DNA of 62,956 bases, filler included, from Babesia bigemina (lineage: Eukaryota), in NCBI RefSeq assembly GCF_000981445.1. It is 8 parts of 8 records of this genome, joined end to end, with 100 filler letters (N's around TTAATTAATTAA, not from the genome) between each part and the next. Parts side by side here need not be neighbours in the genome. Positions count along the whole stretch, not along the records: positions 1 to 7,602 come from NW_012236963.1; positions 7,703 to 16,005 come from NW_012236964.1; positions 16,106 to 24,558 come from NW_012236965.1; positions 24,659 to 33,249 come from NW_012236966.1; positions 33,350 to 42,112 come from NW_012236967.1; positions 42,213 to 51,089 come from NW_012236968.1; positions 51,190 to 60,124 come from NW_012236969.1; 1 more part is not named here. The stretch is one strand, 5' to 3'. The notes beneath the pieces were generated by a model that saw nothing but the letters and a program-made list of their open reading frames with translations, ran no database searches and was not told the origin of the DNA. Every line of letters starts with the position of its first letter. The first letter of the stretch is position 1. This document shows positions 1-60,124 of this stretch, piece after piece. A program made the position numbers and the translations under genes.

Positions 1-590
1 AAGGGGCGATGTGGAGGGGTTAAGGGGCGATGTAGAGTGGGTTAGGGAGCGATGTAGAGTGGGTTAGGGAGCGATGTAGAGTGGGTAAAGGGGCGATGTA
101 AGGTGGGTAAAGGAGCGATGTAGAGTGGGTTAAGGAGCGATGTAGAGTGGACTAGGGAGCGATGAGGAGTGGGTTAAGGGGCGATGTAGAGTGGATTAGG
201 GAGCGATGTAGAGTGGGTTAAGGAGCGATGTGGAGTGGGTTAAGGGGCGATGTAGAGTGGGTTAAGGGGCGATGTAGAGTGGATAAAGGGGCGATGTAGA
301 GTGGTTTAGGGAGCGATGTAGAGTGTGTTAAGGAGCGATGTAGAGTAGGTAAGGGGCGATGAAGAGTGGATAAAGGGGCGATGTGGAGTGGATAAAGGGG
401 CGATGTAGAGTGGGTTAGGGAGCGATGTAGAGTGGGTTAAGGGCGATGTGGAGTGGGTTAGGGAGCGATGTAGAGTGGGTTAGGGAGCGATGTAGAGTGG
501 GTTAGGGAGCGATGTAGAGTGGGTTAGGGAGCGATGTGGAGTGGATAAGGGAGCGATGTGGAGAGGGTTAAGGGGCGATGTAGAGTGGAT
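1..590 (-). repeat. 22-bp tandem array A (plus-sense consensus CCACTCTACATCGC(C/T)CC(T/C)T(A/T)A(C/T)), downstream of gene 1
   Basis: Degenerate GGGCGATGTAGAGTGGGTTAAG units with period 22, the reverse complement of the arrays elsewhere in the window. Confidence 0.97.
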
Positions 591-614
591 GATAATCACC
601 ACTTAGGTCACCAC

Positions 615-940
615 TGTCATCGCTGCCGTGACCATGCCATCGCTGCCGTGACCATGACATCGCTGCCGTAACCATGTCATCGCTGCCGTGATTATTTCAC
701 CGCTGCCGTAACCATGTCACCGCTGCCGTAACCATGTCACCGCTGCCGTAACCTAGACATCGCTGCCGTGACCATCTCATCGCTGCCGTTACCATGTCAT
801 CGCTGCCTTGACCATAACAATGTCATCGCTGCCTTGACCATGTCATCGCTGCCGTGACCATGTCATCGCTGCCGTGACCATGTCATCGCTGCCGTAACCT
901 TGTCATCGCTGCCGTGACCATGTCATCGCTGCCGTGACCT
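615..940 (-). repeat. 20-bp tandem array B (GGTCACGGCAGCGATGACAT, reverse orientation)
   Basis: TGTCATCGCTGCCGTGACCA repeated with period 20. Confidence 0.96.
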
Positions 941-1230
941 TAACTTGGTCACCACGTTGGTCACCACGTTGGTCACCACGTTGGTCACCACCTTGGTCAT
1001 GGCATTGGTCAGCACCTTGGTCATGGCATTGGTCAGCACGTTGGTCACCACATTGGTCACCACCTTGGTCACCACTTTGGTCAGCACATTGGTCAGCACG
1101 TTGGTCACCACGTTGGTCATGGCATTGGTCAGGTGGTTGGTCAGCATCTTGGTCACCACTTTGGTCAGCACCTTGGTCAGCACATTGGTCAGCACGTTGG
1201 TCAGCAGTTTGGTCAGCACTTTGCTCAACA
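941..1230 (-). repeat. 12-bp tandem array C (TGCTGACCAATG-like, reverse orientation)
   Basis: TTGGTCA core every 12 nt; explains the low-complexity ORFs 923..1275. Confidence 0.96.
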
Positions 1231-1356
1231 CATCAGTTAAGTACTACACAATCACATACAACGATTAGTGAGTGATGCAACAGATTAAAGCACAATTCAT
1301 AAGTTAGGTGAGTAGGTGATGCTAGGTGAGTGTAGATAGTAAACACGTGAGTACGA
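1231..1356 (-). other. conserved type-A 3' flank/3'UTR block of ves-like genes
   Basis: Near-identical to 14944-15067, 40270-40392, 49483-49605 and 59048-59169. Confidence 0.85.
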
Positions 1357-4300
1357 TTATGGTTGCAGGTACGATATCTTGCCAAGGCTGCCAACACGTG
1401 CAGCAGCGAGTAGTGATTGAGCGGCTATCCTATGACTTGAGGGTGAGTGCAAATGCGATTTGATGTGGAGCAGGTCGAGGCGGATGACCATGATGTGGAG
1501 GAGGTAGAGAAGGGAGAGGAGCCAGAGGGCGACGTTGAGCCAGAAGAATTTGCTTCTGATGTTCCATATGAATTTGGGGATACGTCGTGTACTAATTTGG
1601 CGAGTGGAGCCTCGTCATCTATTTTATCGCTCAGAACTTTCTGCAATGCGTTACATAGATCTTTGCAAGTACGTATCGTTTCTTCGCCGCTTTCTCCGCT
1701 CATGTTCGATAGGCTTTTGAAGACGAAGCCATACTTACACAAAGTGGGACGTGTGAACGGGCAGTGAGAAATAGGGTTGCAGTGCACAGTGTGGCATGGC
1801 TTGTCGGATTTTCTGCTTTTACCTTCGTCGGTATATTTAACTTTACATGGTTTTAAAGCAGACTTTACCTGAACATCTCGGGCCTGGTTTATCGCAATTG
1901 CTGCAGCAATCCTTGGTAAAATGGCTCAAACAAATTGGTATAAGGTTTCGGTAATGTATAAAATCCAAGATAGGTATTTGTCGGCGTGCTCTTGGGAGAA
2001 CACAGTCCACGTGTTGAGGCGGAATGGCTTCAAATAACGGCCACATGTTGCCGTCGACGACGACGTACTGTCGCAGCTGAAGAGACACAACATGTCTCCT
2101 TTGGTATGGAGATCGTTCTGCGTTCTCGTAAAGAATACCGTTGGCATGTCCAATTGGGGATAGGGTACGCCGAAGTTGGCCCCTGTAACGGCATCGATGA
2201 ATGCGCTTTTCTTATGCGTCTTAACATCTACTCTACCTTTGATATTGCGATTCCAATCGACAAAGAAATTGTAGTAGAATGCAAACATATCGCCGAGAGT
2301 CTGAGGGGGGCGTTGCAAAAGACAAAGCAACTGGCTACATATTCTGGTAAGCGGCGCTTCTGAATTACCACAGAGCTCATCGAGGACTTCTTTAATGTGT
2401 TCACCTTGCTTAGTATGCGACGCTACATTGCTGATATCTGAGAAACCCATAGGTGTCATACATGGAATTCCTCTGTGTTTAGCCACTGTGCATTCCAACT
2501 TACAACCTGGTTTGCCAAACTGGTGAGGGAGGAACCCCGGTAGGCCATCCTCCAAAAATGACTGTAACGGTGATTTAAGACCGCACTTAGGGTGTTGGTC
2601 ACATGTTTGGTCGGCCTTTTGATTGGCAATTTGGTTACACGTTTGGCCATTCATTTGGTTAGGACATTGTTTATCATTGCACCGCCAATCCGAGCCCCCT
2701 ACGTATCTGCCATACCAACACTCACGCCAACTGTTTGTCTTGTACGTACGTGAGCACTGGATGAATAAGAAATAGAGTTGGTCGTAGAGTCTATGCAACA
2801 TATCTACAAGCACGTCGAAGCATTTGGCAGGATCACTTGGATACGAGAATTTAAATTCATTGGTGTTGAAGTCTACAGCATATACGCCACCAGCATGACC
2901 GTGGCCTTGGATTGCTGTGAGAACTGAATGCGATTGTGCGCATACGTCCGTAAGCGCAGCAGTGAGGCTACCAGGTGTGATGTTGTGCGGATATGCTGGC
3001 AAGGACACGTCGCTGACGACGGAAATTGAAGGTTCAGTTTGTACACCTGCCTCCGCATCTCCATTAACGACAGCGATAACCGCTTTCTTATTCTCATCCG
3101 ACGCTTGTTCATCAGCCTCGTCGAATAATGTACTGAAATAGTTAAACGTTAATTCGCGATGGACCGAATTATTAGGCAGGCCTGCGAACCATATGAGCAT
3201 TTCGTAAATCGAAGATGGTTGTTTTTTAGAACCTGAAGTGCCCAAATGACAGACTTCATAGTAATGGTGGAGGTGGTAGGAGAGGTATTGAAGAATGTCT
3301 AGGACAGTGGGTGGATGAGTATTTCCCTTAGTAGCTTTTTTGAGATCGAGAAGTTCTTTAATCCACGGCGTCTGCAAGCTATCTTTAGTAAAATTCTTAA
3401 TGCGTTGGCTTAGAATCTCATCGCAAATTTTGCTGCCCATCATAGTCTCCTTGTCCTGCAACTCACCATGCTGCTTGCCCTTAACGGTGTTAACCTTGTA
3501 ACCTTGCCTCTCGAACCATCTGCCAAAAGTATCATCTTGATAAGTATTAATTTGTTTTCTCATCCACTGCTTTGAAGACTTTGTCATCAACTCTTCCAAG
3601 TCGTGACTCAGTATCTCCAGCACTGTGAGAAATACTTTACAGCAATTCTTACCATGATCGCTTAATTTACTTGTAAACGTGCCATCCCAAGCAAAATGAA
3701 TAGATGGATCTCCCTCATACCCGTTCACATACACCCGCTCCATCTGCTCGACAAACCCCCGCAGCCCCGCTCTGACCGCATCGAGCAGCTCCGGGTGCCG
3801 GGGGTTGGCGAAGGCGGAGGGGGAGAGAGCGGTGAGGGAGGAGGAGAGGCGGGAGAGGAGATTAGTGTAAGTATTGTCAAATAAGTATGTTCTGGGTGGT
3901 TTAGAGTCATTTTTAAGGTGGTTGAGCAAATCGTCGAAATTAGTGTTGACAGCGTCCAGCAGCTTGACATTGGGGTCTTCGGTCGGAGGCTGTGGTGGAC
4001 TTTCAGGAGTAATTTGTTGCTTGATATACCTATGAATATTGGCAAAATAGGCGTTGAACTCGGTGGATAATTTTTTAAATTTCTGAAGATGATCTGCGCC
4101 TGTGAGTGGTGACGTCAAGGACTGGGCAAACTCACTAATTACGTTGAACAATTCAGACCTATTAGAGTCTTCAAATGTATATGTATTTGTTGATTTTGAC
4201 ACGTACTTATTACCTCCCATAACCCTCATAAACCCCTTGAACCCGATTTGCAGATCCCTGTCAATCTCCGCCGGCAACCCCGCCAACTCCTGGCTGACCT

Positions 4301-6989
4301 TGTCCGCGAACGCGGTGAGGAGCGATTTGATGGAGGTGACGTAGTTGCGGCGGGCGGCGGTGGTGAGGAGCCGAGTAGAGTTATCTACTTGGATGTTGAC
4401 AAATTGTTCGAGATGTTTCATTATTACATCGCGAAATGCTTCAGATTCTGTCTGGAAATTTTTAGTAGCCTCTATGGTTTGTGCCACATCGGTTCGTATG
4501 AGACCTTCCATTTTCATCTTAATTCCAATTAGTTCATTGTCATTGGTACCGTTAATAGAGTTGTTTATAAAATCGTTTAAATAGTGTTGCGCTTGTTCAC
4601 CGCTTTCCCTAACGGCACCGCACAGTTGTTCGACATGGTGTATAATTAAGTGAAGCTGTGATTCCGCATAGTTATTGATTGAGTCAATAGATGTTAGAGC
4701 CTCCCTGACTTTGGCTCCAATTTTTCCAATCTCCAATGGAAGGGCGCCCTCACTATTATCAGGATTGCCCGTCAGAGGTGACACAATACTTTGGGAGACA
4801 TGCTTAGTGTAATGTGGAAAAGCATTATCGTTAACGTTTACTTTTGCAGCTCCATTAGCGAGTACAACGCTTCCCTTGTAAGGCAACTTGCCACCAAGCG
4901 TGATAGCCACCCCGTCAATCGCCTGGTCGATATTTGTCACGTAGTCCACTGTGAAGGCTTCACCAACAGACGCTTCAATATTATGAAACAGCTTTTTTGC
5001 CACACTAACCGCAGAGTCCAGGTTATCTCCCATCTTGGACATCTTCCTGGAACTTTCATGACCGATTAACAATTTGAGTTCTTCTGCCACCTGCTGGGCT
5101 GTTGCTTGGAGAGCTGCCAGCGCCGTTTTAACGGCGCGTTCAAGGGAATAATCGTAATCAAACTTGGACGGTGTGGGACTCCTAACTTCTGTTTCGATAG
5201 CTTTTACAATACTTTTAACAAGTTCGCTAGTATCACCGGACGTGAGGCCCTCCTCATCTATCTTACTACTGAGCGTCTGCTCAAATTTTTTGATACAATC
5301 ATATACAGCGACTAAATTCCCATCCGTTTCCTTTTTGCCGGACTGAATTGTTGCATTTTCAAGCGATATTCCGAGCGCAGGTCTAATTGCTTCCGCAATT
5401 TTACCGGTATGTGAATTGCTGAATTCTTCTTTACCCTTCGTTATATAACCCTCCTTAAAGTAACCGATGCTACCGCTCTTCTCTTTTATCCACTTCCCAA
5501 CCCAGCCCTTTACTCCTGAATTATTGTCCAAAATAAGTTTTATCCACCCCTGCACTGTGCTTTCGAACGTCTTTTTGAAACGCTTGGAGTAGTCGTCGAC
5601 TATGAGCTTTTTTATACCTTCGAGACCGAAGCTTCCTAGGGTGCTACCCCTAATTTTGTAGAGCTCTGACTTCACATGTTTGAAAACGTCTGCAAATTTC
5701 CGATTTTTATCTCCTGTACCAGCTGTGCCTGTTCTAATGACTTCGTTGAGTTTACCGATTGCTGTTTTAACCTCTCCGAGTTTTTTATTTATTTGCAGTT
5801 TGACCTCTCCCAAATCTTTCTTTAAATCTTCATTCATTGATGCAACCTCCTCCAGTGCCTTTTTCACCTGAGCAACCGCATCTTTTCTGGCGGATTCCCC
5901 TGCCTTATGAAGTTCTGACGCCTTATCTCTTAACTCCTTTGCGGCGTTTTCGACGTCTTTTCTCCTTTGCCCTTTTTCATCCCATTTTACGTCATCCAAT
6001 ATATTTTGCAGTCTGTATTTAGCCGCCTGAATTGTGGCATTTGCATCCTTGATCCACTGCAATATATCTTTTATACGGTTTTGCAGAATTATGCCAATAC
6101 CTTCAATTTTTACCCTAATAATTGTAACCTTCGTGTTCAATTGGTACACTAGGTCCGTAACCTGCTCAGTAAACTCTTTCGTGATCTCAGCTTTTAGGAA
6201 TTCGTGAACACTCTTAATTTCCTCCTCCATACTCTTCAAGTCCCCTCGCTCCTTCTCCGCCAGCTTATACAGCCTCTTACCCTCATACGAAACATTGTTT
6301 AATGCAACATTTACACGATCTCTACAATTAGAATTAAGGTCTAAAATGTGTTTATTATTGTCATTGAGTTTGTTGCAGAAAGCCTGACCGGCGTCAAAGA
6401 ACTGCTTGGCAAGCATCTCAGCCCTGTCCACGGTCTTGACAATTTCACCTGCATCAGAATTATTTTCATCCAATTCACTCACCTGATTATTAAGATGTTT
6501 TACATCCTCTTGTAGAATTTTTATCGGATTCATGACTCTGTTATTAGAGTCTCTGACACCATCATTATACCCCCGCACCCCTGCGACCACACTTCCAATC
6601 GCAACACTAAAACCTTTTTTACCGGCGTGTTTATTGGTCTTCAAAGCTTCAATAGCTTCATTAATTTGTGTTTTATGCTGCCCTAAATGGTTTTGGATGT
6701 TACTGAGAACACCACTCAAAAATCCCATCACCCCGTCACACAGCCTATCCAGGTCGGAGTACACTATCCCAGTGCCGTCGTAGCCTTTGGACTCAGAGTT
6801 GAAGCCGAGGAATTTTTCGAGGCCGTCACATAAATTATCTAAGAGATTTTTACAATCATCAGACTTATTTTTTTCAGTAAAAATGCTAAGCTTATTTTCA
6901 AGTTCTTTAAGTTGTTTCTCACGCTCTTCAATGTCCTCCAAAGCTTTTTTAGTAGCATCGTCACTAAGAGAATGGTCAGTATCAGCAAG
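1357..6989 (-). pseudogene. ves1: VESA1-like variant erythrocyte surface antigen, gene 1; three apparent frameshifts near the 3' end (possibly sequencing errors) and no in-frame start ATG
   Basis: ORF 1926..6941 contains LCDGLEKFLGFN...IVYSDLDRLCDGVMGFLSGVL and SPLQSFLEDGLPGFLPH. Homology continues in other frames (1843..2088, 1425..1787) and then as IPKFIWNIRSKFFWLNVALWLLSLLYLLHIMVIRLDLLHIKSHLHSPSSHRIAAQSLLAAARVGSLGKISYLQP, stop at 1357-1359. The frame is open upstream to 6989. The ves subfamily is uncertain. Confidence 0.7.
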
Positions 6990-7176
6990 TTATTATAAAG
7001 GTTTATGGAGGTCATAGCGTTAATATAACGAAGTAATTCGAGAGATTTGGAGTTAAGGCGAACATGATGGGACATGGCAGTGGCAAGAGGTGGAAGAAGG
7101 GAAGTGGAGGGTGACAAGGCACAAGTTATTGTGATGGTTAATGGAGGTCATAGCGGTATTATGGCGAGGTAATTCG

Positions 7177-7602
7177 AGCGATGTAGAGTGGGTAAAGGGG
7201 CGATGTAGAGTGGATAAAGGGGCGATGTGGAGTGGGTTAGGGAGCGATGTAGAGTGGGTAAAGGGGCGATGTAGAGTGGGTTAAGGGGCGATGTGGAGTG
7301 GGTTAAGGAGCGATGTAGAGTGGATAAAAGGGCGATGTAGAGTGGATAAAGGAGCGATGTGGAGTGGATAAAGGGGCGATGTGGAGTGGGTTAGGGAGCG
7401 ATGTAGGGTGGGTTAAGGAGCGATGTAGAGTGGATAAAGGGGCGATGTAGGGTGGCTTAAGGGGCGATGTAGGGTGGGTAAAGGGGCGATGAAGGGTGGG
7501 TTAAGGGGCGGTGTAGAGTGGGTAAAGGGGCGATGTAGAGGCGATGTAGAGTGGATAAAGGGGCGATGTGGAGTGGGTTAAGGGGCGATGGAGAGTGGGT
7601 TA
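7177..7602 (-). repeat. 22-bp array A upstream of gene 1
   Basis: GGGCGATGTAGAGTGG units with period 22. Confidence 0.97.
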
Positions 7603-8670: not shown

Positions 8671-8760
8671 CCGAATTACCTCGCCATAATACCGCTATGA
8701 CCTCTTTAGACCACAATAATAACTTGTGCTATGTCATCCTTCACCTCCCTTCTGACTGTG
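8671..8760 (+). other. conserved array-to-gene linker (GAATTACCTCGCCATAATACCGCTATGACCTC...AATAACTTG)
   Basis: Also starts at 16822, 25092 (variant), 34719 and 53366, and occurs twice on the minus strand within 6990-7176. Confidence 0.85.
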
Positions 8761-14943: not shown

Positions 14944-15067
14944 TCGTACTCATGTGTTCACTGTCTACACTCACATAGCATATCACCTACTCACCTAACT
15001 TATGAATTGTGCTTTAATCTGTTGTATCACTCATTAATCGTTGTATGTGATTGTGTAGTAGTTAACT

Positions 15068-15653: not shown

Positions 15654-15898
15654 TCACGGCAGCGATGACATGGTCACGGCAGCGATGACATGGTCACGGC
15701 AGCGATGACATGGTCACGGCAGCGATGACATGGTTACGGCAGCGATGACATGGACACGGCAGCGATGACATGGTCACGGCAGCGATGACATGGTTACGGC
15801 AGCGATGACATGGTCACGGCAGCGATGACATGGTTACGGCAGCGGTGACAAGTTAGTGGTCACGGCAGCGATGACATGGACACGGCAGCGATGTCATG
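15654..15898 (+). repeat. 20-bp array B
   Basis: TGGTCACGGCAGCGATGACA repeats. Confidence 0.96.
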
Positions 15899-15917
15899 GT
15901 GACCAGAGTACTGATTT

Positions 15918-43544: not shown

Positions 43545-43548
43545 AATT

Positions 43549-49482: not shown

Positions 49483-49604
49483 TCGTACTCACGTGTTTAC
49501 TGTCTACACTCACCTAGCATCACCTACTCACCTAACATATGAATTGTGTTTTAATCTGCTGTATCACTCATTAATCGTTGTATGTGATTGTGTAATTGCT
49601 AACT

Positions 49605-49764
49605 AAAGTGTTGACCAATGCCACGACCAACGTGGTGACCAAGGTGCTGACCAATGCCACGACCAACGTGCTGACCAACGTGCTGACCAAAGTGCTGACC
49701 AATGCCACGACCAACGTGGTGACCAAAGTGGTGACCAAGGTGCTGACCAAGCACCTGACCAAGT
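49605..49764 (+). repeat. 12-bp array C
   Basis: GACCAA every 12 nt. Confidence 0.95.
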
Positions 49765-49768
49765 TAAG

Positions 49769-49985
49769 GTTACGGCAGCGATGTCTTGGTCACGGCAGCG
49801 ATGTCTTGGTCACGGCAGCGATGACATGGTCACGGCAGCGATGACATGGTCACGGCAGCGATGACATGGTTACGGCAGCGATGACATGGTCTCGGCAGCG
49901 GTGACATGGTCACGGCAGCGATGACATGGTTACGGCAGCGGTGACATGGTCACGGCAGCGATGACATGGTCACGGCAGCGGAGAC
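49769..49985 (+). repeat. 20-bp array B
   Basis: GGTCACGGCAGCGATGACAT units. Confidence 0.95.
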
Positions 49986-50010
49986 AGTGGTGACCTAAGT
50001 GGTGATTTAC

Positions 50011-51089
50011 TATCCACTCTACATCGCTCCTTAACCCACTCTGCATCGCCCCTTATCCACCTTACATCGCCCTTAACCCACTCTACATCGCCCCTTTGTC
50101 CACTCCACATCGCCCCTTAACCCACTCCACATCGCTCCTTAACCCACTCTACATCGCCCCTTAACCACTCCACATCGCTCCCTAACCAACTCTACATCGC
50201 CCCTTTAACCACTCTACATCGCCCCTTACTCCACTCTACATCGCTCCCTAACCCACTCCACATCGCCCCTTTACCCACTCTACATCGCTCCCTAATCCAC
50301 TCCACATCGCCCCTTTACCCACTCTACATCGCCCCTTTACCCACTCCACATCGCTCCCTAACCCACTCTTCATCGCTCCCTTACCCACTCCACATCGCTC
50401 CTTTATCCACTCTACATCGCCCCTTAACCCACTCCACATCGCTCCTTTATCCACTCCACATCGCTGCCTTATCCACTCTACATCGCTCCCTAATCCACTC
50501 TACATCGCCCCTTTATCCACTCTACATCGCCCCTTACTCCACTCTACATCGCCCCTTATCCACCTTACATCGCCCTTAACCCACTCTACATCGCCCCTTT
50601 ATCCACTCTACATCGCCCCTTTATCCACTCTACATCGCCCCTTAACCTCCTCTAATCGCTCCTTAACCCACTCTACATCGCCCCTTTATCCACTCTACAT
50701 CGCCCCTTTATCCACTCTACATCGCCCCTTAACCTCCTCTAATCGCTCCCTTATCCACCCTTCATCGCCCCTTTATCCACTCTACATCGCTCCTTATCCA
50801 CTCTACATCGCCCCTTATCCACTCTACATCGCTCCCTAATCCACTCTACATCGCCCCTTTATGGGCTCTACATCGCCCCTTTATCCACTCTACATCGCCC
50901 CTTTATCCACTCTACATCGCCCCTTTACCCACTCTACATCGCCCCTTTACCCACTCTCCATCGCTCCCTAACCCACTCTACATCGCTCCCTAACCCACTC
51001 TACATCGCTCCTTTAACCACTCTACATCGCCCCTTTATCCACTCCACATCGCCCCTTAACCCACTCTACATCGCCCCTTTATCCACTCT
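50011..51089 (+). repeat. 22-bp array A downstream of gene 6
   Basis: Period-22 units. Confidence 0.97.
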
Positions 51090-53363: not shown

Positions 53364-53389
53364 TTGAATTACCTCGCCATAATACCTCT

Positions 53390-56300
53390 ATGACCTCTTT
53401 AAACCATAACAATAACTTGTGCCTTGTCACCCTTCCCTTCCCTTCTTCCACCTCCTGCCACTGCCCTGACCATGTGCCGCCTAGGGAGCTTGACAAGAAA
53501 TTTGGTAAAATTTTGAAACTTAAAAATACCCTAAATAACAACCCTACTAATATCCTTAACAACCTCTGCTCTGGCCTCGAGAAATTCTTAGGCTTCAACT
53601 CTGAGTCCAAAGGCTACGACGGCACTGGAATTGTCTACTCTGACTTGGACTGGCTGTGTGACGGGGTGATGGGATTTTTGAGTGGTGTTCTCAGTAACAT
53701 CAAAGATCATTTAGGGCAGCATAATAATGAAATTAGCAATGCAATTAAGTCACTTGAGACCTGTAAACATGGTGGTAAATTAGGTTTTAATGATGCGATT
53801 GGAAGGGTGGTCGAAGGGGTGCGGGGGTATAATGAGAGAGTTAAGAACTCTAATGATTCTGTCAAGAGCAAGATAACAGACTTGGACAGTCAAATGAAGA
53901 AACTCAAACAATCGGTGAGTGAAGATTTAAAAAATAATTTTGCTGCAGGTGCTGGAAGAATTGTGCAGGGATCCGTGGACTCTGCTGACCAATTGGTGAA
54001 GACATGCCTTAACAACGCAGACAAATTTAATGAATCTTTAGACACTGCAAAATATGAAAACGTGAAAAACGCAATTAATGATCTTAACTCTATTGTGCGT
54101 GATGATGTGAATAAAGCGCGTGCCTGTGTTAAGCTTGAGACGGAGCAGTTCGCTGCTCTGTCGAGTAAGCAGCAGGAAGATCGAAAGGTGATGAGGGAGA
54201 AAATAGAGCGTTGTTTGACAGACCTGGGAACTTGCGTGAATGATAGTATCAAGAAAAAGGTGAAAAATCTTGTTGACGATTTAAGCAAGAAGGTGAATGA
54301 AATTAAGAGGCAGCTGGAGGAAATAAAGAAACAGCTTATGGAGTATATAGGAGAGTTGACGACGTGGATTGGTCAAGCAGAGCCTTTGATTAATTCGGCG
54401 TTTGGGAAGGTGGAAGAGATATTAAAGGAAGTTAATGAAGGTGATTCGGAAAAGAAACCTTTCCTCATCGCATCGGCTGTTAGAGAGATTACAGCATCCG
54501 TATTGATACTACACGGCGCCGGTGAAGAGGCTAAAAAGCATGTCAAAGAGAAAGTGACTGCAGCACTTAAGCAGGTTAAGGAGATGAACGACGAGCTGAA
54601 GAAGGATTTGTATAAGGTCAAAGGAGCGATTAAGAAAGCGATTTGGGATCACGTTAATGAAAATATTGTGACGACGCATTTCAATAATTTGGAAAAAAAT
54701 GTGAGAGAAGGATTGTGGAAGATCGAAAGTGCGATCAAGACTCCGCTCGAAAGCACAGTAGAAAAATCGTCTTTTTTTTTTGAAAAATTCGAAGACACGA
54801 AGAATGCAATTGAGGAGGCAGTTAAGAATGTAGAAGGAAATTTGCAAAATCTCGAGGCATTCAAGAATATTGAGAGCATTGGCAGCGGCGTCGAAGGCAA
54901 TGTTCAGCTCTTAAGCTCTTTGACGAGGGCACCATTCACACAACTTAAAACATATTTCACTCATCTCAATCAAGACATTATGATACCTCTAAAAAACATA
55001 ATGCAGAATAGGGGATGGCAAGAAATTATTCGATATGCTGACGCAAGATATGTAAATCATAACATTAAAGATGTTAAGGATGAACTTTCTAAGCATCTAA
55101 CGACACTTCAGAGTGCTGTCAAGGGCAGCAACCCAGGTCTTAAATTTCAAGAAGTTGAAGCACAGCTGAAGAGCACAGTTGGCGACATGTTTAACGTAAA
55201 AAATAACATCCAAGAAAAACTCGGTAGTGTTATTGAACTGCAAGGGATGATAAACAAACTTCAGCAGTCACCGCCAACATTAGAACAGGGAGATGCTGCA
55301 AAGATTTTCACTGCCTTAGGTCAAATAGCCGAAGGTGTTGCCGAACATTACAAAGAGGTTGTTGAGGCTACCATAGATGCCATAACAAAGAAATTGGAAA
55401 GCGAAGTGAAGGGTGTGACCGCAGCTATCAGAAAAAAGGTGTCAGCAATATATAGTGGCATAAAAGATGCCAATGATGAAGAAAAAAAAATAGAGTACAG
55501 TGCGGGAAGTCTACATGAAAAGGCTCGAGGATTACTGACTCTGGTGAACAGTTATAAGATGAATGTTAAAGCTGAGCTTGAGAAGCTCAAAACGGAAACT
55601 ATACCGCAAGCGTTCAAGAAGAAGTCGCTGAGCGGTCCAGATTCGAAAGATTATAACTTTGGTAGTGGTATCATGGACGATTTCATACGCACTCACGCGG
55701 AACTAAACACTGAGCTTCAGGCGAGCAAATTTCAGGCAGCTGTCGCTGAAAAACTTAATACAGAGATCGGAAGGGATGCATTGATACAGGGAGGTGGTGT
55801 AGGTGGTAAAATAGCGGAATTTTTGAAAGATAAATACCCGAATTACACAGGGCAAATCAACCAAGATACTCTTGAGCTCTTGAAGACTAAGCCTGATGAG
55901 CTAAAAGGTGACCTGCCTGAAAAGATAATAGACATTAAGACCCAGGTAGAAAATGCTTTGATAAAAATCGACAGTGAAAAGGAATACGCAGTAAAGGAAT
56001 TGGAAAAAATCACTGCCACCCTTCATGAGCTTTGCCAGGCTGTAAGAGCCGCCGGTGACCACGCTCAGGGGAGTCTGAAACAATTGCAGGACACGTACTT
56101 CAATACATCTGAATACGCTAAAAACGGCATTAGAATAATTCAGTATCAGCTTACCAATCTGCAAGAAGATGACCTGGCAAAAGCCATCAAGGAAGCCACC
56201 AAATTCTTACATGAAGCTGAAAAAATACGCGACGATACCACTCGATCCCTAAAAATCGATGTCGACGGTCAAGTCAAAGAAGTCAAAAGGCAACTCACCT

Positions 56301-59047
56301 CCGAGCTCGACAAGCAGTACATCACCACCATGGCGCTGCAGCTCGACCACTTCGCCGACAGGGTCACCGCGCACCTCAAGGGACTGCCCGAGGCGATCGA
56401 ACAAGACAAGAACACTGGCTTCAAAGGCTTCATGGAGGCGTTCGAGGGGAAGCCGGAAGTTAAGCCGAGGGAGAAGTATGCTTTCGAAGCGCCTACAGTT
56501 GAACTGAGTAAACTTGAAGAGTTTAAAGGAGCTGTTACTAAGCCACATAATTCCAAGAAAGATGAATTTAAAACGCTGTCGGAGGAGTTCAAGAAATTGT
56601 ACATCAACCTCCACCTATATGTCAACAAAGAGACCGTAAGGGTGAACGATGAAGAGAACAGCAAGAAGCACCCCGCTGGAACGGACATTCATGACTACCA
56701 ACGCAGGCTCTTAGCAATGTATGACCGCTTCAATGAGTTGATGTTGCACATTGCTAACGCAAACAGGTATGATCATCAGATACCAGGCCTGCTCGATGGG
56801 CTGTTGGAGGCGCTCCATGACCTCAAACCGGACGGCTTCGCTAAACCCAGTACGCCGGTTATAGATTGTGTCTCCAGCGGTTTAACGAACTTCATCGGTG
56901 AGCTGAGTAGAGTTTACATATCCGCGTATGACAGGCAGAAGTTTGGTGAGTTGGTGAAAAATCCTAACACCGAATATTCTGTGTTGACTAAAGAAGGACG
57001 TGACTGCGCCAAAACGTTCCTGACTTTACTGGCGATTCTAAATGACGACCTGAGCTATTTTAGAGATCAATGCAATTCAGAATGGTCGAAGCGTAAACTG
57101 TATTCCGGTAGCAGTCTTGGTTCATTTTTGCGAAGGTGCGGTTACCGTGTTGCCATCAAAGAGACAGATCAGAACGGTGAGCTGCAGAACAAAACTGGTT
57201 TCACCGGGTCATCAATTTATGGAAAGTTAGTCGGAGAAAATTATGATCACGTCTACCGCAATGATAAGGACACCAAATTTGCACTTGAAAATATGTATGC
57301 GTACCTCACCCTTTATTACGATGTCTGCCACATCGCCGCTTCCTTGTCGACTCGGCGACCGTGTTCCATATACGAAATGCTCGGTTGGTTCACCAGTCTG
57401 GTCCATCACCCAGTCTACTTCGAGCTCACAACGAACGATTTTGCTGATCTTTTCGATAAGCCCAAGAAGAAAGCGGGGGGCAACGCTGCGGTGGACGGCA
57501 TCACCTTCGAAGAACCAAGCAGCCTGCTGTTGAATGCTTACCCACAGAACCTCACGCCTAGTGATCTACATGACGCAGTTATGCACGTCACGTCCCTTGC
57601 TCCAGTCATCCTGACTACCATCGTCGGTTACGGTGATGAGTTCACCACCTACGCCGTTGACTACCACAGTAACGCCGCTGGATTTGCGATCCCCTCATCG
57701 CCTTCGTCATGTCTCAACATGTTGCTCGAATTGATGCGTCGACTGTTTCCTGTGTTCAGATTCCTGCACAGCCGCTGTAGCAACCTGGCATCGGAGTACG
57801 GTTGGTATCACTGCGCCTATGGCAGCGATGTAGAGTCCGCCGGTTGGCAGTGTAAGGACCACTCGAAAACTGATGTCGAGTGCCGTCCCAGATCACCGCT
57901 CATGTCGTACCTCCGTGACTCCCTTCCCGGCCACTTGCCTCACCAACTGACCAGCGTTGACTGTAAATCGGAATGTAAGACGTGTCCCAAATTAACACCC
58001 GGGATGCCATGTATCACGCCACTCGGCTTCAAGGGTTTCTCGGGAAGCAAAAGGACGGGTAAAGACATAAGCAACGTGCTGATCAAATTCTTCGACAAAG
58101 GCGTCGCTTCATGCCTGCTGTCCCTGTCGCCCAGACCCCCGAGCAGCTTGCCAGAACACTATGCTTTTGCGTTGTCCTTCGTGAAAGGATGGTCATTTGG
58201 TAGTAGTAACGGGCTGAAACAGAAGATTGAATCTACAATGAAAACAGCATCTATCGATTTGTATTCCGATGCATCTCCTCTTACCAATGCGCTGACGCAA
58301 GCCTATGGTGATGCACGAAGCAGCCATGGCACCAACCATCCCAAATCATCCGAAGATGCTGTATCAAGCCTGTCAATCAGTACTAGATGCAACGGTGCGA
58401 ATCACTGCGGGCCTTATTTGTCTACCCTTTACTCGGACACTTATCCTTACTTCGGCAACAAACACTGCGACGCATACATGTCCTGGTCGGTTTATTTGCC
58501 GTGGACGTTTTGGCAGCAACTCAACAGTTTGTATAACGCATTCTTACAGATATTCTGCCAAGACTGGGGATGCACTGGCTGCTTGAGAGGGGACACCTGC
58601 AAAAAAGGGACGCACGGTATGCTCAACCCGGACGTCCCTGGCGACGGATGCAAATGCCCATCGATTGTTGGATGCAAGGGAGTGGGTCCTACATTATACC
58701 AATATGGTTTCACATTCCAAGATGTACATTGTCTGATATCCAACCAAACGAAATGCTTCAACCTGCGCAATCAGTTATTTAGTGTGCTGCATTCGCAATA
58801 TTTCAAGGACCTCTTCGAAAAGTGTGATGAGTTCCTCTGGATCATCAGGCAACCCTTCTCCTACCTTGTCCTTGCCCTCTGGCTCCTCTCTTTGTTGTAC
58901 CTCATCCACATCATGGTCATCCGCCTCGACCTCCTCCACATCAAATCGCATCTACATAGTCCCTCGAGTCATCGCATCGCCGCGCAATCGCTGTTGGCTG
59001 CTGCACGTGTTAACAAGCTTAACAGGGTGTTTTACCTGCAACCGTAA
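53390..59047 (+). CDS. ves1: VESA1-like antigen, gene 7 (1885 aa, short head, tail type A)
   Basis: The linker ATG is in frame (MTSLNHNNNLC...); LCSGLEKFLGFN, SPLMSYLRDSLPGHLPH, TM and NKLNRVFYLQP. Confidence 0.83.
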   Translation: MTSLNHNNNLCLVTLPFPSSTSCHCPDHVPPRELDKKFGKILKLKNTLNNNPTNILNNLCSGLEKFLGFNSESKGYDGTGIVYSDLDWLCDGVMGFLSGVLSNIKDHLGQHNNEISNAIKSLETCKHGGKLGFNDAIGRVVEGVRGYNERVKNSNDSVKSKITDLDSQMKKLKQSVSEDLKNNFAAGAGRIVQGSVDSADQLVKTCLNNADKFNESLDTAKYENVKNAINDLNSIVRDDVNKARACVKLETEQFAALSSKQQEDRKVMREKIERCLTDLGTCVNDSIKKKVKNLVDDLSKKVNEIKRQLEEIKKQLMEYIGELTTWIGQAEPLINSAFGKVEEILKEVNEGDSEKKPFLIASAVREITASVLILHGAGEEAKKHVKEKVTAALKQVKEMNDELKKDLYKVKGAIKKAIWDHVNENIVTTHFNNLEKNVREGLWKIESAIKTPLESTVEKSSFFFEKFEDTKNAIEEAVKNVEGNLQNLEAFKNIESIGSGVEGNVQLLSSLTRAPFTQLKTYFTHLNQDIMIPLKNIMQNRGWQEIIRYADARYVNHNIKDVKDELSKHLTTLQSAVKGSNPGLKFQEVEAQLKSTVGDMFNVKNNIQEKLGSVIELQGMINKLQQSPPTLEQGDAAKIFTALGQIAEGVAEHYKEVVEATIDAITKKLESEVKGVTAAIRKKVSAIYSGIKDANDEEKKIEYSAGSLHEKARGLLTLVNSYKMNVKAELEKLKTETIPQAFKKKSLSGPDSKDYNFGSGIMDDFIRTHAELNTELQASKFQAAVAEKLNTEIGRDALIQGGGVGGKIAEFLKDKYPNYTGQINQDTLELLKTKPDELKGDLPEKIIDIKTQVENALIKIDSEKEYAVKELEKITATLHELCQAVRAAGDHAQGSLKQLQDTYFNTSEYAKNGIRIIQYQLTNLQEDDLAKAIKEATKFLHEAEKIRDDTTRSLKIDVDGQVKEVKRQLTSELDKQYITTMALQLDHFADRVTAHLKGLPEAIEQDKNTGFKGFMEAFEGKPEVKPREKYAFEAPTVELSKLEEFKGAVTKPHNSKKDEFKTLSEEFKKLYINLHLYVNKETVRVNDEENSKKHPAGTDIHDYQRRLLAMYDRFNELMLHIANANRYDHQIPGLLDGLLEALHDLKPDGFAKPSTPVIDCVSSGLTNFIGELSRVYISAYDRQKFGELVKNPNTEYSVLTKEGRDCAKTFLTLLAILNDDLSYFRDQCNSEWSKRKLYSGSSLGSFLRRCGYRVAIKETDQNGELQNKTGFTGSSIYGKLVGENYDHVYRNDKDTKFALENMYAYLTLYYDVCHIAASLSTRRPCSIYEMLGWFTSLVHHPVYFELTTNDFADLFDKPKKKAGGNAAVDGITFEEPSSLLLNAYPQNLTPSDLHDAVMHVTSLAPVILTTIVGYGDEFTTYAVDYHSNAAGFAIPSSPSSCLNMLLELMRRLFPVFRFLHSRCSNLASEYGWYHCAYGSDVESAGWQCKDHSKTDVECRPRSPLMSYLRDSLPGHLPHQLTSVDCKSECKTCPKLTPGMPCITPLGFKGFSGSKRTGKDISNVLIKFFDKGVASCLLSLSPRPPSSLPEHYAFALSFVKGWSFGSSNGLKQKIESTMKTASIDLYSDASPLTNALTQAYGDARSSHGTNHPKSSEDAVSSLSISTRCNGANHCGPYLSTLYSDTYPYFGNKHCDAYMSWSVYLPWTFWQQLNSLYNAFLQIFCQDWGCTGCLRGDTCKKGTHGMLNPDVPGDGCKCPSIVGCKGVGPTLYQYGFTFQDVHCLISNQTKCFNLRNQLFSVLHSQYFKDLFEKCDEFLWIIRQPFSYLVLALWLLSLLYLIHIMVIRLDLLHIKSHLHSPSSHRIAAQSLLAAARVNKLNRVFYLQP

Positions 59048-59169
59048 TCGTACTCACGTGTTTACTATCTACACTCACCTAGCATCACCTACTCACCTAA
59101 CTTATGAATTGTGGTTTAATCTGTTGCATCACTCATTAATCGTTGTATGCGATTGTGTAGTAGTTAACT

Positions 59170-59376
59170 AAAGTGCTGACCAAGGTGCTGACCAATGTGC
59201 TGACCAATGTGCTGACCAAAGTGTTGACCAACGTGGTGACCAATGTGTTGACCAATGCCATGACCAAAGTGTTGACCAAGGTGCTGACCAATGTGCTGAC
59301 CAATGCCATGACCAATGTGCTGATCAAAGTGGTGACCAATGCCATGACCAAAATGCTGAATTACCATTTGACCAAG
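59170..59376 (+). repeat. 12-bp array C
   Basis: TGACCAA every 12 nt. Confidence 0.95.
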
Positions 59377-59379
59377 TTG

Positions 59380-59627
59380 ATGGTCACGGCAGCGATGACA
59401 TGGCCACGGCAGCGATGAGACGGTCACTGCAGCGATGACATGGTTACGGCAGCGATGACATGGTCACGGCAGCGATGACATGGTTACGGCAGCGATGACA
59501 TGGTCACGGCAGCGATGGCATGGACACGGCAGCGATGACATGGACACGGCAGCGATGACATGGTTACGGCAGCGATGACATGGTCACGGCAGCGATGACA
59601 TGGTTACGGCAGCGATGACATGGTCAC
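59380..59627 (+). repeat. 20-bp array B
   Basis: TGGTCACGGCAGCGATGACA units. Confidence 0.95.
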
Positions 59628-59641
59628 AAGTGGTGATTATC

Positions 59642-60124
59642 ATCCACTCTACATCGCTCCCTATCCCACTCCACATCGCTCCCTAATCCACTCCACATCG
59701 CTCCTTATACACTCAACATCGCTACCTAACCCACTCTACACCGCTCCTTAACCCACTCTACATCGCTACCTAACCCACTCTACATCGCTCCTTTATCCAC
59801 TGTACATCGCCCCTTTATCCACTCTACGTCGCCCCTTTGTCCACTGTACATCGCCCCTTTATCCACTCTACGTCGCCCCTTTGTCCACTCTACATCGCCC
59901 CTTTATCCACTCCACATCGCTCCTTAACCCACTCTTCACCGCCCCTTTATCCACTCTACATCGCTCCCTTATCCACTCTACATCGCCCCTTTATCCACTC
60001 TACATCGCCCCTTTACCCACTCTACATCGCCCCTTTACCCACTCTACATCGCCCCTTTATCCACTCTACATCGCTCCCTAACCCACTCTACATCGCTCCT
60101 TAACCCACTCTACATCGCTCCTTT
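59642..60124 (+). repeat. 22-bp array A downstream of gene 7
   Basis: Period-22 units. Confidence 0.97.

What the first reader, a model, noticed from the sequence alone, without database searches (positions are those of the whole stretch)
1..60124. Stereotyped repeat-bracketed cassette around the ves-like antigen genes: candidate gene-conversion library
Seen: independent contigs share the order array A(22) > linker > antigen ORF > conserved 3' block > [D(24)] > C(12) > B(20) > fixed junction > array A, always co-oriented with the gene, including the minus-strand contig 1. Exceptions are contig 4 (insert, truncated in C), contig 5 (no B) and contig 6 (no linker). Known: B. bovis ves1 varies by segmental gene conversion into a locus of active transcription, and T. 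brucei VSG cassettes are delimited by upstream 70-bp repeats and a conserved 3' end. Inference: these arrays may be homology or initiation tracts for whole-cassette or segmental exchange, or silencing elements. I do not know of a described multi-repeat cassette grammar like this in Babesia.
Basis: partly seen in the sequence, partly recalled or inferred. Interest (0 to 1): 0.85.

Follow-up and report, generated by a model that had tools for sequence, protein, structure and literature searches.

The report
Repeat-framed Babesia ves1b-like gene units
Seven small Babesia contigs each carry one very divergent ves1b-like surface-antigen gene framed by the same ordered short tandem repeats and the same leader and tail blocks, a layout that likely keeps the gene copies recombining and under common control, although that role is untested.

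Summary
The window is 8 contigs joined by N spacers. All 7 contigs that lie wholly inside it share one co-oriented order: 22-bp array A, 55-nt leader, large gene, conserved tail and 3' block, (24-bp D), 12-bp C, 20-bp B, fixed junction, array A.

The genes are Babesia bigemina/ovata ves1b-like. Refinements:
- Array A ends in the same phase 26 nt before a conserved ATG. The leader is likely 5'UTR, a 10-codon exon 1 and a splice donor.
- D occurs only with a second type of tail and 3' block.
- B is nested in C-like units.
- Contig 6 is a leader deletion. Contig 1 is frameshifted.
- Contig 4's "insert" carries a small Cys-rich membrane-protein ORF. Its junction with D recurs in other samples.

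Non-coding flanks are 82-91% identical, while gene bodies are 16-22% identical. Contigs from four other public runs hold the flanks but not the gene body.

The visible recombination lies at internal islands (GFLSGVL, transmembrane start), not in the arrays. The cassette idea is therefore partly supported, and the arrays' own role (homology, promoter or silencer, break site) remains inferred. I found no description of these arrays in the papers searched. I rate it a new variant of a known kind, interest about 0.55.

The parts
1..588 (-). c1: array A (22 bp), downstream side of the gene, runs to the contig end
589..609 (-). c1: fixed B-to-A junction (C-like units ..GTGGTGACCTAAGTGGTGATTAT..)
610..939 (-). 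c1: array B (20 bp)
945..1231 (-). c1: array C (12 bp)
1232..1356 (-). c1: 3' block type I
1357..6986 (-). c1: ves1b-like coding region. Longest ORF is 1926-6728. Homology runs on to the family stop at 1357-1359 through at least 3 frame changes, so this is a pseudogene or sequence errors.
6987..7041 (-). c1: second leader copy (subtype b); splice-donor position mutated
7123..7177 (-). c1: first leader copy (subtype a)
7178..7602 (-). c1: array A, upstream side, runs to the contig end
7703..8670 (+). c2: array A, upstream
8671..8725 (+). c2: leader (26 nt + ATG + 26 nt ending AACTT|GT). A putative 61-nt intron follows at 8726-8786.
8731..14943 (+). c2: ves1b-like ORF, 2070 aa, C-terminal domain class alpha, tail type I
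14944..15070 (+). c2: 3' block type I
15071..15645 (+). c2: array C
15654..15900 (+). c2: array B
15901..16005 (+). c2: junction (15901-15917), then array A to the contig end
16106..16817 (+). c3: array A, upstream
16820..16874 (+). c3: leader. A putative 61-nt intron follows at 16875-16935.
16859..22864 (+). c3: ves1b-like open frame (first ATG at 17096, 1922 aa), domain class beta, tail type II
22865..23005 (+). c3: 3' block type II
23006..23474 (+). c3: array D (24 bp; carries a GTGCTA..TAGCAC palindrome)
23487..23722 (+). c3: array C
23744..23903 (+). c3: array B
23904..24558 (+). c3: junction (23904-23920), then array A to the contig end
24659..25087 (+). c4: array A, upstream
25090..25144 (+). 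c4: leader subtype b. A putative 41-nt intron follows at 25145-25185.
25142..30403 (+). c4: ves1b-like open frame (first ATG at 25736, 1555 aa), domain class alpha, tail type II
30404..30549 (+). c4: 3' block type II
30550..30948 (+). c4: array D
30949..33199 (+). c4: module between D and C. It holds 75-bp repeats (31465-31854), a small Cys-rich membrane-protein ORF (31861-32328) and 282-bp repeats (32334-33036).
33200..33249 (+). c4: C-like units at the contig end
33350..34716 (+). c5: array A, upstream
34717..34771 (+). c5: leader. A putative 61-nt intron follows at 34772-34832.
34756..40269 (+). c5: ves1b-like open frame (first ATG at 35008, 1753 aa), domain class beta, tail type I
40270..40391 (+). 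c5: 3' block type I
40392..40457 (+). c5: short array C; no B follows
40458..42112 (+). c5: junction (40458-40474), then array A to the contig end
42213..43544 (+). c6: array A, upstream. It abuts the coding sequence after 'AATTA', so the leader and about 49 codons are deleted.
43549..49482 (+). c6: 5'-truncated ves1b-like frame (first ATG at 44038, 1814 aa), domain class alpha, tail type I
49483..49596 (+). c6: 3' block type I
49597..49763 (+). c6: array C
49768..49980 (+). c6: array B
49981..51089 (+). c6: junction (49981-50013), then array A to the contig end
51190..53361 (+). c7: array A, upstream (2.2 kb or more)
53364..53418 (+). c7: leader; its ATG (53390) opens the long ORF directly
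53390..59047 (+). c7: ves1b-like ORF, 1885 aa, domain class beta, tail type I
59048..59172 (+). c7: 3' block type I
59173..59359 (+). c7: array C
59380..59627 (+). c7: array B
59628..60124 (+). c7: junction (59628-59641), then array A to the contig end

Best explanation
Each contig is one copy of a duplicated gene unit of a ves1b-like family: a 22-bp satellite (A) ends, always in the same phase, 26 bases before a conserved start codon, and the gene is followed by a conserved tail, a 3' block and the minisatellites (D), C, B and then A again. This shared spacer is likely kept alike by recombination between copies, and it would serve both as the family's common upstream region and as homology for duplicating or moving whole genes.

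Shown by the sequence:
- The order, orientation and fixed junctions.
- Two linked 3' types (tail + 3' block, with or without D).
- B nested between C-like units.
- Flanks 82-91% identical around gene bodies that are 16-22% identical.
- Mosaic combinations of modules.
- The same flanks and junctions in contigs of other public runs.

Inferred:
- The units lie head to tail or clustered, and the assembly broke in A, so 'A on both sides' is one intergenic array.
- The leader is 5'UTR plus exon 1 plus a splice donor, with a 61- or 41-nt intron. This leaves array A in the promoter position.
- Unequal or ectopic recombination in the long arrays homogenises the flanks and turns over whole genes.
- Antigenic mosaics are made by short conversion tracts bounded by internal islands (the GFLSGVL island at the 5' side, the start of the transmembrane segment at the 3' side).
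For: Order and orientation hold in 7 of 7 complete contigs.

Junctions:
- The A-to-leader junction is at the same unit phase in 7 of 7 contigs. c6 keeps only 'AATTA' of the leader.
- The B/C-to-A junction is conserved in 6 of 6 contigs that reach it, including c5, which has no B.

Conservation:
- Leader: mean 82% identity over 7 copies. 3' block type I: 91% over 5 copies. Type II: 89% over 2 copies.
- Proteins: 16-22% identity over about 1000 central residues, with peaks of 70% at the island and 75% in the last 75 residues (c8 left out).

Mosaicism:
- C-terminal domain classes {c1, c2, c4, c6} and {c3, c5, c7} against tail types {c2, c5, c6, c7} and {c3, c4} give all four combinations (c1 left out of the tail matrices because of its frameshifts).
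- D occurs only with type II.
- c7 and homologue P0013 are about 92% identical over the first ~103 residues, about 30% in the body and about 97% over the last 55.
- c1 and c5 share a 140-bp patch at 91% identity inside otherwise unalignable bodies.

Array A: the same pool of unit variants occurs in all 13 arrays.

Gene starts:
- In-frame GT..AG introns directly after the leader exist in c2, c3, c5 (61 nt) and c4 (41 nt). c7 is directly in frame.
- The annotated homologues P0082 and P0085 start with the leader peptide joined at exactly these points.
- 11 of the 119 listed homologues start with the leader peptide or a near variant.

Other samples: Logan contigs of 4 runs (3 coded organisms) hold array A, leader, first ~450 bp, last ~280 bp of the CDS, 3' blocks, D, C and B, but almost nothing of the c7 gene body. 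Loose ends reproduce the A-to-leader, block I-to-C and D-to-insert junctions.

Clustering: 14 of the 119 listed homologues lie on contigs of 5.9-9.6 kb, and six pairs share a contig length of 15-44 kb, which suggests clustered genes (inference from equal contig lengths).
Against: - No contig shows two family genes with an array between them, so the head-to-tail layout is not shown.
- No genome is held, so arrays elsewhere in the genome (centromeres, other genes) cannot be excluded.
- No RNA data were available (one search listed no RNA holder), so the leader exon, the intron and the promoter position are predictions.
- No exchange boundary was seen inside an array, so 'arrays as homology' rests on analogy and on their identity between loci.
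- Purifying selection on a protein-binding function would explain the flank conservation equally well.
- The summed contig depths are not copy numbers.
- c1's frameshifts could be sequencing errors in a low-coverage contig.
Confidence: 0.5

Rival explanations
1. The arrays are sequence-specific protein-binding arrays, each unit a site for a DNA-binding protein such as an ApiAP2 factor. They would nucleate silencing or heterochromatin, or act as the switchable promoter or insulator of each gene, as the SPE2 arrays bound by PfSIP2 do upstream of upsB var genes. Recombination would then be a side effect.
For: - Array A ends 26 nt before the start codon in the same phase in all copies that have a leader, which is the promoter position.
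- Unit lengths of 12, 20, 22 and 24 bp are near one or two helical turns.
- D carries a 6-bp-arm palindrome and folds better than shuffles (z = -2.3), as dimeric binding sites do.
- Unit sequences, order and junctions are conserved in contigs of other runs.
- A B. ovata homologue (P0083) has an N-terminus that reads like a translated A-like C-rich array followed by the same 5' coding join as c4. This is a hint that an upstream array predates the species split.
- PfSIP2/SPE2 precedent: passages of PMC2829057.
Against: - No binding protein, chromatin or expression data are available.
- The SPE2 consensus has 0 matches in the window (the pattern was partly recalled).
- Unit variants are numerous, with only 3-12 identical units per array, which is looser than expected for a strict binding site.
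- The B. ovata hint rests on one annotated protein, and most of its score comes from the coding part.
Confidence: 0.28
2. The arrays are programmed recombination elements, like the 70-bp repeats of Trypanosoma brucei VSG cassettes. Breaks or pairing would start in array A (its G-rich strand may form G-quadruplexes) and end in the conserved 3' end, copying a whole silent cassette into an expression locus.
For: - There is an upstream array plus a conserved 3' end at every copy.
- Strong strand asymmetry (GC skew down to -0.8).
- 54 of 59 G4 motifs with loops up to 12 nt lie in the arrays, on the strand antisense to the gene.
- Gene bodies differ between samples while the flanks are shared.
- The role of the 70-bp repeats as homology for VSG conversion: search listings and abstracts of PMC4858185 and PMC8612549.
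Against: - With the canonical loop limit of 7 nt, only 5 G4 motifs lie in the arrays.
- The single strands of A have no secondary structure (0 and -0.4 kcal/mol).
- All mosaic boundaries seen lie inside the coding region.
- 5 of 7 copies look expressible in place.
- The proteomics supplement of PMC4066756 lists several homologues detected together, which does not fit one expression site fed by silent cassettes.
- No expression site is known here.
Confidence: 0.12
3. The arrays are functionless minisatellites that expanded once in the spacer of an ancestral gene unit and were carried along by segmental duplication. Their prominence in this window is an effect of the assembly breaking at long repeats.
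For: - All 14 ends of the 7 complete contigs lie in array A, and the contigs are sorted small leftovers of an assembly.
- Array lengths vary widely (66-575 bp for C; B absent in c5) without visible consequence.
- The fixed junctions fit simple common descent.
Against: - Neutral spacers should diverge faster than coding sequence. Here the spacers are 82-91% identical while the proteins are 16-22% identical, so homogenisation or selection is needed.
- The same units, order and junctions are held in contigs from four other runs of three coded organisms.
Confidence: 0.1

Closest known systems
Trypanosoma brucei VSG cassettes (upstream 70-bp repeats, conserved 3' end)
   Same: - A tandem-repeat array lies upstream of each variant-antigen gene.
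- The C-terminal coding end and 3' region are conserved and shared by otherwise very divergent genes.
- Family members are mosaics.
   Different: - The repeats here are four different short units (22, 20, 12 and 24 bp) in a fixed order. Three of them lie downstream of the gene.
- No sequence relation to the 70-bp repeats was tested, because none was fetched.
- Array A reaches to 26 nt before the start codon.
- Most copies look expressible in place.
- No expression site is known, and the exchange boundaries seen are internal to the gene.
Plasmodium falciparum upsB var upstream SPE2 arrays and TARE repeats bound by PfSIP2 (PMC2829057, passages read)
   Same: - Arrays of short units sit in a conserved position upstream of variant-antigen genes of an apicomplexan.
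- The flanks are family-specific and conserved around hypervariable genes.
   Different: - The SPE2 bipartite consensus is absent (0 matches).
- The arrays here are much longer (0.4 to 2.2 kb or more) and directly abut the leader.
- No binding protein or heterochromatin data exist.
- A subtelomeric position is unknown.
Babesia bovis ves1 locus of active transcription and segmental gene conversion (as summarised in PMC4066756 and PMC6630957)
   Same: - Same gene superfamily (ves1).
- Family members are mosaics made of short shared tracts.
   Different: - The LAT is a divergent ves1alpha/ves1beta pair around a bidirectional promoter of a few hundred bases. Here there are single co-oriented genes with kilobase satellite spacers.
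- The Pfam model of the B. bovis VESA1 N-terminus is not matched.
BbigVes1a/1b/1ba families of Babesia bigemina (Jackson et al. 2014, PMC4066756)
   Same: - The window's genes are close relatives of proteins of B. bigemina. One of these carries the name BbigVes1b in that paper's supplement.
- The paper's 'ves1ba' recombinants with a different 3' end match the two tail types seen here in all combinations with the domain classes.
   Different: In the passages found with the terms repeat, intergenic, satellite, tandem and flank, the paper describes no repeat arrays, leader or 3' blocks around the genes. I could not assign the window's copies to its a/b/ba lists.

Membership tests
Babesia ves1 (BbigVes1b-like) | Sequence homology to a protein named as BbigVes1b | tested here: met
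   The last 621 residues of the c2 protein hit P0020 (BBBOND_0303510) at E = 2.7e-216 and 53% identity. [quoted passage not shown]
Babesia ves1 (BbigVes1b-like) | Conserved C-terminal domain with a single hydrophobic (transmembrane) segment and a conserved tail | tested here: met
   The last 75 residues are 57-92% identical between copies and contain ..ALWLLSxLYLxHIMVIRLD... No transmembrane predictor was run; the hydrophobic stretch was read by eye.
Babesia ves1 (BbigVes1b-like) | Match to the Pfam model of the B. bovis VESA1 N-terminus | tested here: not met
   No VESA1 family was listed for 7 window ORFs or for the 2 full-length homologues, at E up to 0.01 or 1. PMC4066756 states that only the C-terminal domain aligns across species.
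Babesia ves1 (BbigVes1b-like) | Exposure on the red-cell surface and clonal antigenic variation | not testable with these tools
   No expression or serological data are available for these copies.
VSG-type repeat-delimited conversion cassette | Repeat array upstream of each gene copy | tested here: met
   Array A lies upstream in 7 of 7 contigs.
VSG-type repeat-delimited conversion cassette | Conserved 3' end shared by divergent copies | tested here: met
   Tail plus 3' block are 86-95% identical (type I) and 89% (type II).
VSG-type repeat-delimited conversion cassette | Conversion tracts that begin in the upstream repeats and end in the 3' homology, into an expression site carrying the same repeats | not testable with these tools
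   No genome, no switching lines. The boundaries visible here are internal to the gene.
SPE2/PfSIP2-type binding-site arrays | Bipartite motif of two 6-bp half sites (GTGCA type) separated by 4 bp | tested here: not met
   The pattern KGTGCRNNNNKGTGCR has 0 matches against 0.14 expected. The degenerate consensus was recalled. The 6+4+6 layout and the GTGCA half site come from passages of PMC2829057.
B. bovis-type LAT | Divergently oriented ves1 gene pair around a short bidirectional promoter | tested here: not met
   Each contig has one family gene, and all arrays are co-oriented with it.
G-quadruplex recombination initiator (pilE-type) | Canonical G4 motif (four G3+ runs, loops 1-7 nt) next to the variable gene | tested here: inconclusive
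   Only 5 of 8 canonical motifs lie in arrays. With loops up to 12 nt, 54 of 59 do, all on the strand antisense to the gene. No biophysical test was possible.

The most novel reading that the evidence does not exclude
Babesia bigemina-type parasites frame every ves1b-like antigen gene with a dedicated four-satellite module. Array A, abutting the start codon, is the switchable promoter/silencer and a break-prone pairing tract. D, C and B behind the conserved 3' block are terminator/insulator sites. Together they make a repeat-delimited cassette system, evolved independently of the trypanosome 70-bp repeats and the malaria SPE2 arrays, that controls both which gene is on and how whole genes are exchanged.
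Probability: 0.15. Interest if true: 0.8.

Novelty: new variant of a known kind. Interest (0 to 1): 0.55.

Why it matters
How Babesia species other than B. bovis control and diversify their ves genes is largely unknown. The B. bovis model, a divergent gene pair with a bidirectional promoter, fits only a minority of B. bigemina loci according to PMC4066756.

A conserved spacer with defined units, fixed junctions and a 55-nt leader gives concrete handles:
- oligonucleotides for pull-downs and chromatin assays;
- primers in the leader and 3' block to amplify whole repertoires from field samples;
- defined islands where conversion boundaries can be looked for.

It also explains why these genes end up on small unplaced contigs, and it warns that some annotated N-termini are translated repeats.

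Tried and rejected
- **Whole-genome search for array A:** no genome is held for this window.
- **Earlier findings of this scan**, by place and by sequence: nothing.
- **Metagenome scan** with a two-unit IUPAC pattern of A: 0 loci.
- **Sequencing runs:** 4 holders with small shares (0.05-0.07) and no RNA holder listed, so expression, transcription starts and splicing could not be examined.
- **Parts without cover:** the central gene body of c7 was almost uncovered when the contigs were laid. Only the cover of the flanks is used as a finding.
- **Pfam:** no curated family reached its cut-off for 7 window ORFs, 2 homologues and the small ORF. The weak coiled-coil-type hits (Baculo_PEP_C, Apolipoprotein) were set aside.
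- **Rfam at gathering thresholds:** 0 matches.
- **Hairpin or cruciform idea:** A, B and C fold no better than shuffles (z = +1.0 to +1.8). Only D does (z = -2.3).
- **Canonical G4 motifs:** few.
- **SPE2 consensus:** 0 matches. A spaced AGTGCT pair: 1 match.
- **Shared GCGATG core** between B (sense) and A (antisense): judged no more than chance for a 6-mer, not pursued.
- **Translated open frame of array A** (94 aa) searched among longer proteins (166-2000 aa): no hit at E <= 0.001. This is weak evidence, and P0083 at 2239 aa lay outside the range.
- **ORF 23009-23776** (255 aa) across D, C and B: rejected as a gene. It is open only because the 24- and 12-bp periods lack stops in one frame, and it is not kept in c4.
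- **Reading the copies as a library of dead pseudogenes:** rejected for 5 of 7 copies once the leader exon and intron were seen.
- **Paper searches:** for the unit strings, 28 papers hold at least one string, 10 were listed and none of those concerns Babesia; 18 were not seen. For Babesia repeats, searches found no description of these arrays. One search was badly posed and returned only general satellite papers.

Full report
**What the window is**

The 62,956 bases are not one locus. They are 8 contigs joined by spacers of 44 N, TTAATTAATTAA and 44 N. Contig lengths rise from 7,602 to 8,935 bases, so these are sorted small leftovers of a eukaryotic assembly. No whole genome is held for it. 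Each of the seven complete contigs carries one long ORF of 1,555-2,070 codons. Contig 8 starts inside such an ORF and is cut by the window end.

**The observation**

Tandem Repeats Finder and mapping of the four consensus units with mismatches confirm four repeat kinds:

| Array | Unit length | Unit |
|---|---|---|
| A | 22 bp | CCACTCTACATCGCCCCTTAAC |
| B | 20 bp | ACGGCAGCGATGACATGGTC |
| C | 12 bp | GTGCTGACCAAT |
| D | 24 bp | CCAGGCAAAGTGGTAAGCTAGCAC |

- All arrays lie on the strand of the contig's gene, including minus-strand contig 1.
- The order A, leader, gene, 3' block, (D), C, B, junction, A is found in 7 of 7 complete contigs.
- Units A, B and D occur nowhere else in the window, apart from one A unit at an array edge.
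- Arrays are 15,504 of 62,340 non-N bases.
- All 14 ends of the 7 complete contigs lie in array A. A is therefore where the assembly stopped, and 'A on both sides' may be one intergenic array seen from two sides.

**The genes**

- The last 621 residues of the c2 protein find 370 relatives. The 119 listed besides the window's own protein are all from Babesia bigemina or B. ovata, at 35-59% identity.
- One of them, BBBOND_0303510, is named BbigVes1b in a proteomics supplement of Jackson et al. 2014. Several others are listed there as detected proteins.
- Pfam gives no curated hit, including none to the B. bovis VESA1 model. That paper states that only the C-terminal domain aligns across species.
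- I therefore call the genes ves1b-like. The organism is a Babesia of the bigemina/ovata clade, most likely B. bigemina, because all 13 relatives of the small ORF in c4 come from that species.

1. *The leader.* Behind array A lies a conserved 55-nt leader: 26 nt, an ATG, then 26 nt ending AACTT|GT.
   - It occurs once in c2, c3, c4, c5 and c7, twice in c1, and not in c6. Mean identity is 82%, in two subtypes.
   - The A-to-leader junction sits at the same phase of the 22-bp unit in all seven contigs. In c6 only 'AATTA' of the leader remains before the coding sequence resumes at about codon 49 of c2, which is a simple deletion.
2. *Variable join behind the leader.* The coding sequence joins at different depths: near residue 1 in c2, c3 and c5, about residue 131 in c4, about 233 in c1 and about 283 in c7.
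   - In c7 the leader ATG is directly in frame.
   - In c2, c3 and c5 a 61-nt GT..AG interval, and in c4 a 41-nt one, would join it in frame.
   - Annotated homologues begin exactly so: P0082 MTSINHHNNL|YGNGG and P0085 MTSINHYNNL|RAIKDIDSKL.
   - Eleven of the 119 listed homologues start with this leader peptide or a near variant.
   - I infer that the leader is 5'UTR plus a 10-codon exon 1 plus a splice donor. On that reading 5 of 7 copies are expressible by sequence.
   - c1 has a mutated donor at its second leader and at least three frame changes near the 3' end. c6 is 5'-truncated. Both look damaged.
   - No RNA data were available.
3. *Two 3' modules.*
   - Type I: tail ..RVNKLNRVFYLQP plus a 114-127-nt block that runs straight into C (c2, c5, c6, c7; c1 has a mixed tail). 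Mean identity 91%.
   - Type II: tail ..QVGRLAKISYLQP plus a 141-146-nt block that runs into D (c3, c4). Identity 89%.
   - D is therefore not optional. It belongs to type II.
4. *The junction.* The junction before A (..GTGGTGACCTAAGTGGTGATTAT[CT]ATCCAC..) is made of C-like units and is present even in c5, which lacks B. B is thus an expansion nested in C-like sequence.
5. *The c4 insert* holds a 75-bp repeat, a 155-codon Cys-rich ORF with a hydrophobic tail, and 282-bp repeats.
   - The ORF has 13 small uncharacterised relatives in B. bigemina.
   - Contigs of two other runs continue from D into the same sequence, so this is a recurrent alternative layout.

**Conservation contrast**

- In a seven-protein alignment the central ~1000 residues are 16-22% identical. 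Only an island (..NLCDGLxxFLGF..GIVYSDLDRLCDxVMGFLSGVL, 70%) and the last 75 residues (75%) stand out.
- At the DNA level the island is 80-89% identical over 120-150 bp in every contig pair (46 non-array matches among contig pairs, those of 80 bp or more inspected).
- Non-coding leader and 3' blocks are thus far more alike than the genes.
- Logan contigs of four public runs (three coded organisms) were laid on c7 at 85% likeness or more. They cover array A, the leader, the first ~450 bp, the last ~280 bp of the ORF, the 3' block, C, B and A, but almost nothing of the gene body.
- Laid on c3 at 90% or more, they cover the type II block, D, C, B and A. Their loose ends reproduce the A-to-leader and block I-to-C junctions.
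- The summed depths are not copy numbers.

**Recombination that the sequences show**

- C-terminal Cys-rich domains fall into classes {c1, c2, c4, c6} and {c3, c5, c7}. Tail types are {c2, c5, c6, c7} and {c3, c4}. All four combinations exist, and the switch lies at the start of the hydrophobic segment.
- c7 and homologue P0013 are about 92% identical up to GFLSGVL, about 30% in the body and about 97% at the end.
- c1 and c5 share a 140-bp patch at 91% identity in otherwise unalignable bodies.
- c1's tail is itself a type I / type II / type I mosaic.
- These boundaries are inside the genes. None was seen in an array.

**Properties of the arrays**

- A is strongly strand-asymmetric, with about one G per unit on the sense strand (GC skew down to -0.8).
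- Neither strand of A forms secondary structure (0 and -0.4 kcal/mol). B and C fold no better than shuffles. D does, because of its palindrome (z = -2.3).
- G4 motifs with loops up to 12 nt lie in arrays in 54 of 59 cases, on the strand antisense to the gene. With the canonical limit of 7 nt only 5 motifs lie in arrays.
- The same pool of A-unit variants occurs in all 13 arrays.
- Rfam finds nothing. The SPE2 consensus is absent.

**Explanation**

I read each contig as one copy of a duplicated gene unit whose intergenic spacer is made of a 3' block, (D), C, B, the junction, A and the leader.

- The spacer is likely kept alike by unequal and ectopic recombination between copies. The long arrays offer kilobases of homology.
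- Array A occupies the promoter position, 26 nt before the start codon.
- Whole genes would be duplicated, lost or moved through the flanks.
- Antigenic mosaics arise from short tracts bounded by the island and the transmembrane start.
- The layout is shown. The mechanism is inferred (confidence 0.5).

The rivals are active protein-binding or silencing arrays (0.28), programmed 70-bp-repeat-like initiators (0.12) and functionless hitch-hikers (0.10). The neutral reading is weakened because spacers are much better conserved than coding sequence and recur in other samples.

**Comparison and novelty**

- The kind is known: hypervariable antigen genes between conserved, repeat-bearing flanks. Examples are VSG with its 70-bp repeats (PMC4858185 and PMC8612549, listings and abstracts) and upsB var with SPE2 arrays (PMC2829057, passages).
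- The form is different: four distinct short satellites in fixed order, one ending at a fixed phase 26 nt before the start codon, and two linked 3' types.
- I found no description of it in Jackson et al. 2014 (PMC4066756; passages and section 22), the B. ovata genome paper (PMC5660447; passages), the B. caballi genome paper (PMC10463595; passages) or the Allred review (PMC6630957; 12 of 23 passages shown).
- The searches found nothing either.
- Supplement file 1 of PMC4066756 could not be searched, and subscription papers are not in the library.

**Verdict**

This is a new variant of a known kind, with interest 0.55.

Noticed in passing
window 31861-32328 (+), c4: A 155-codon ORF for a small Cys-rich protein with a C-terminal hydrophobic segment sits between array D and array C. 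It has 13 uncharacterised B. bigemina relatives of 94-224 aa and no exact self-hit in the protein collection. Two relatives have locus numbers next to ves1b-like genes (BBBOND_0305030 next to 0305020; 0111400 near 0111370 and 0111420). It may be a small gene family interspersed with ves genes, in the manner of SmORF in B. bovis.
   Followed up: partly
window 32334-33036 (+), c4: 2.5 copies of a 282-bp repeat. Each carries a fragment like the hydrophobic tail of the small ORF plus a conserved stretch resembling a 3' block (..ATCACCTAACTGGCAACTGACATCTAATG..). These look like duplicated 3' ends of the small gene.
   Followed up: no
window 31465-31854 (+), c4: 5.2 copies of a G-rich 75-bp repeat directly upstream of the small ORF. 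It is unrelated to arrays A-D.
   Followed up: no
window 3710-3849 (c1) and 37983-38122 (c5): A 140-bp patch at 91% identity (encoding ..SPSAFANPRHPELLDAVRAGL..) lies inside gene bodies that are otherwise unalignable. It looks like a short gene-conversion tract.
   Followed up: partly
protein P0083 (B. ovata, 2239 aa), residues ~80-260, against c4 local 43-639 (window 24701-25297): The annotated N-terminus (THSTTHPLNHSTTQPPTQ.. repeats) aligns colinearly with the translated array A, the leader and the 5' coding join of c4. This is a hint that B. ovata has an A-like C-rich array directly upstream of a family gene, and that it was annotated as coding.
   Followed up: partly
proteins P0008 (B. 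ovata) and P0092 (BBBOND_0111370): The P0008 N-terminus has an 8-residue period resembling translated array D (44% over 41 aa). P0092 begins MVTAAMT, the translation of one B unit. Some annotated starts in these genomes may lie in repeat arrays.
   Followed up: partly
window 29113-29165, 21901, 53984 (coding) against array C: The core of unit C (GCTGACCAA, reading Ala-Asp-Gln) also occurs in the Cys/Gln-rich low-complexity part of the coding regions (..ADQKANQNANQKADQ..). Array C may derive from, or offer microhomology to, that coding repeat.
   Followed up: no
array A, all copies: A common unit variant contains CCCTAACCC. This resembles a telomere-type repeat; the telomere sequence is recalled, not tested. 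The C-rich strand is always the gene's sense strand.
   Followed up: no
window 23009-23776 (+): A 255-codon ATG ORF runs through arrays D, C and part of B. It is open only because the 24- and 12-bp periods lack stops in one frame, so it is not likely a gene.
   Followed up: yes
window 1357-1500 (c1 tail): c1 has a type I transmembrane segment and a type I 3' block, but the last 12 codons (..VGSLGKISYLQP) are of the type II kind. This is a mosaic of a few tens of bases.
   Followed up: no
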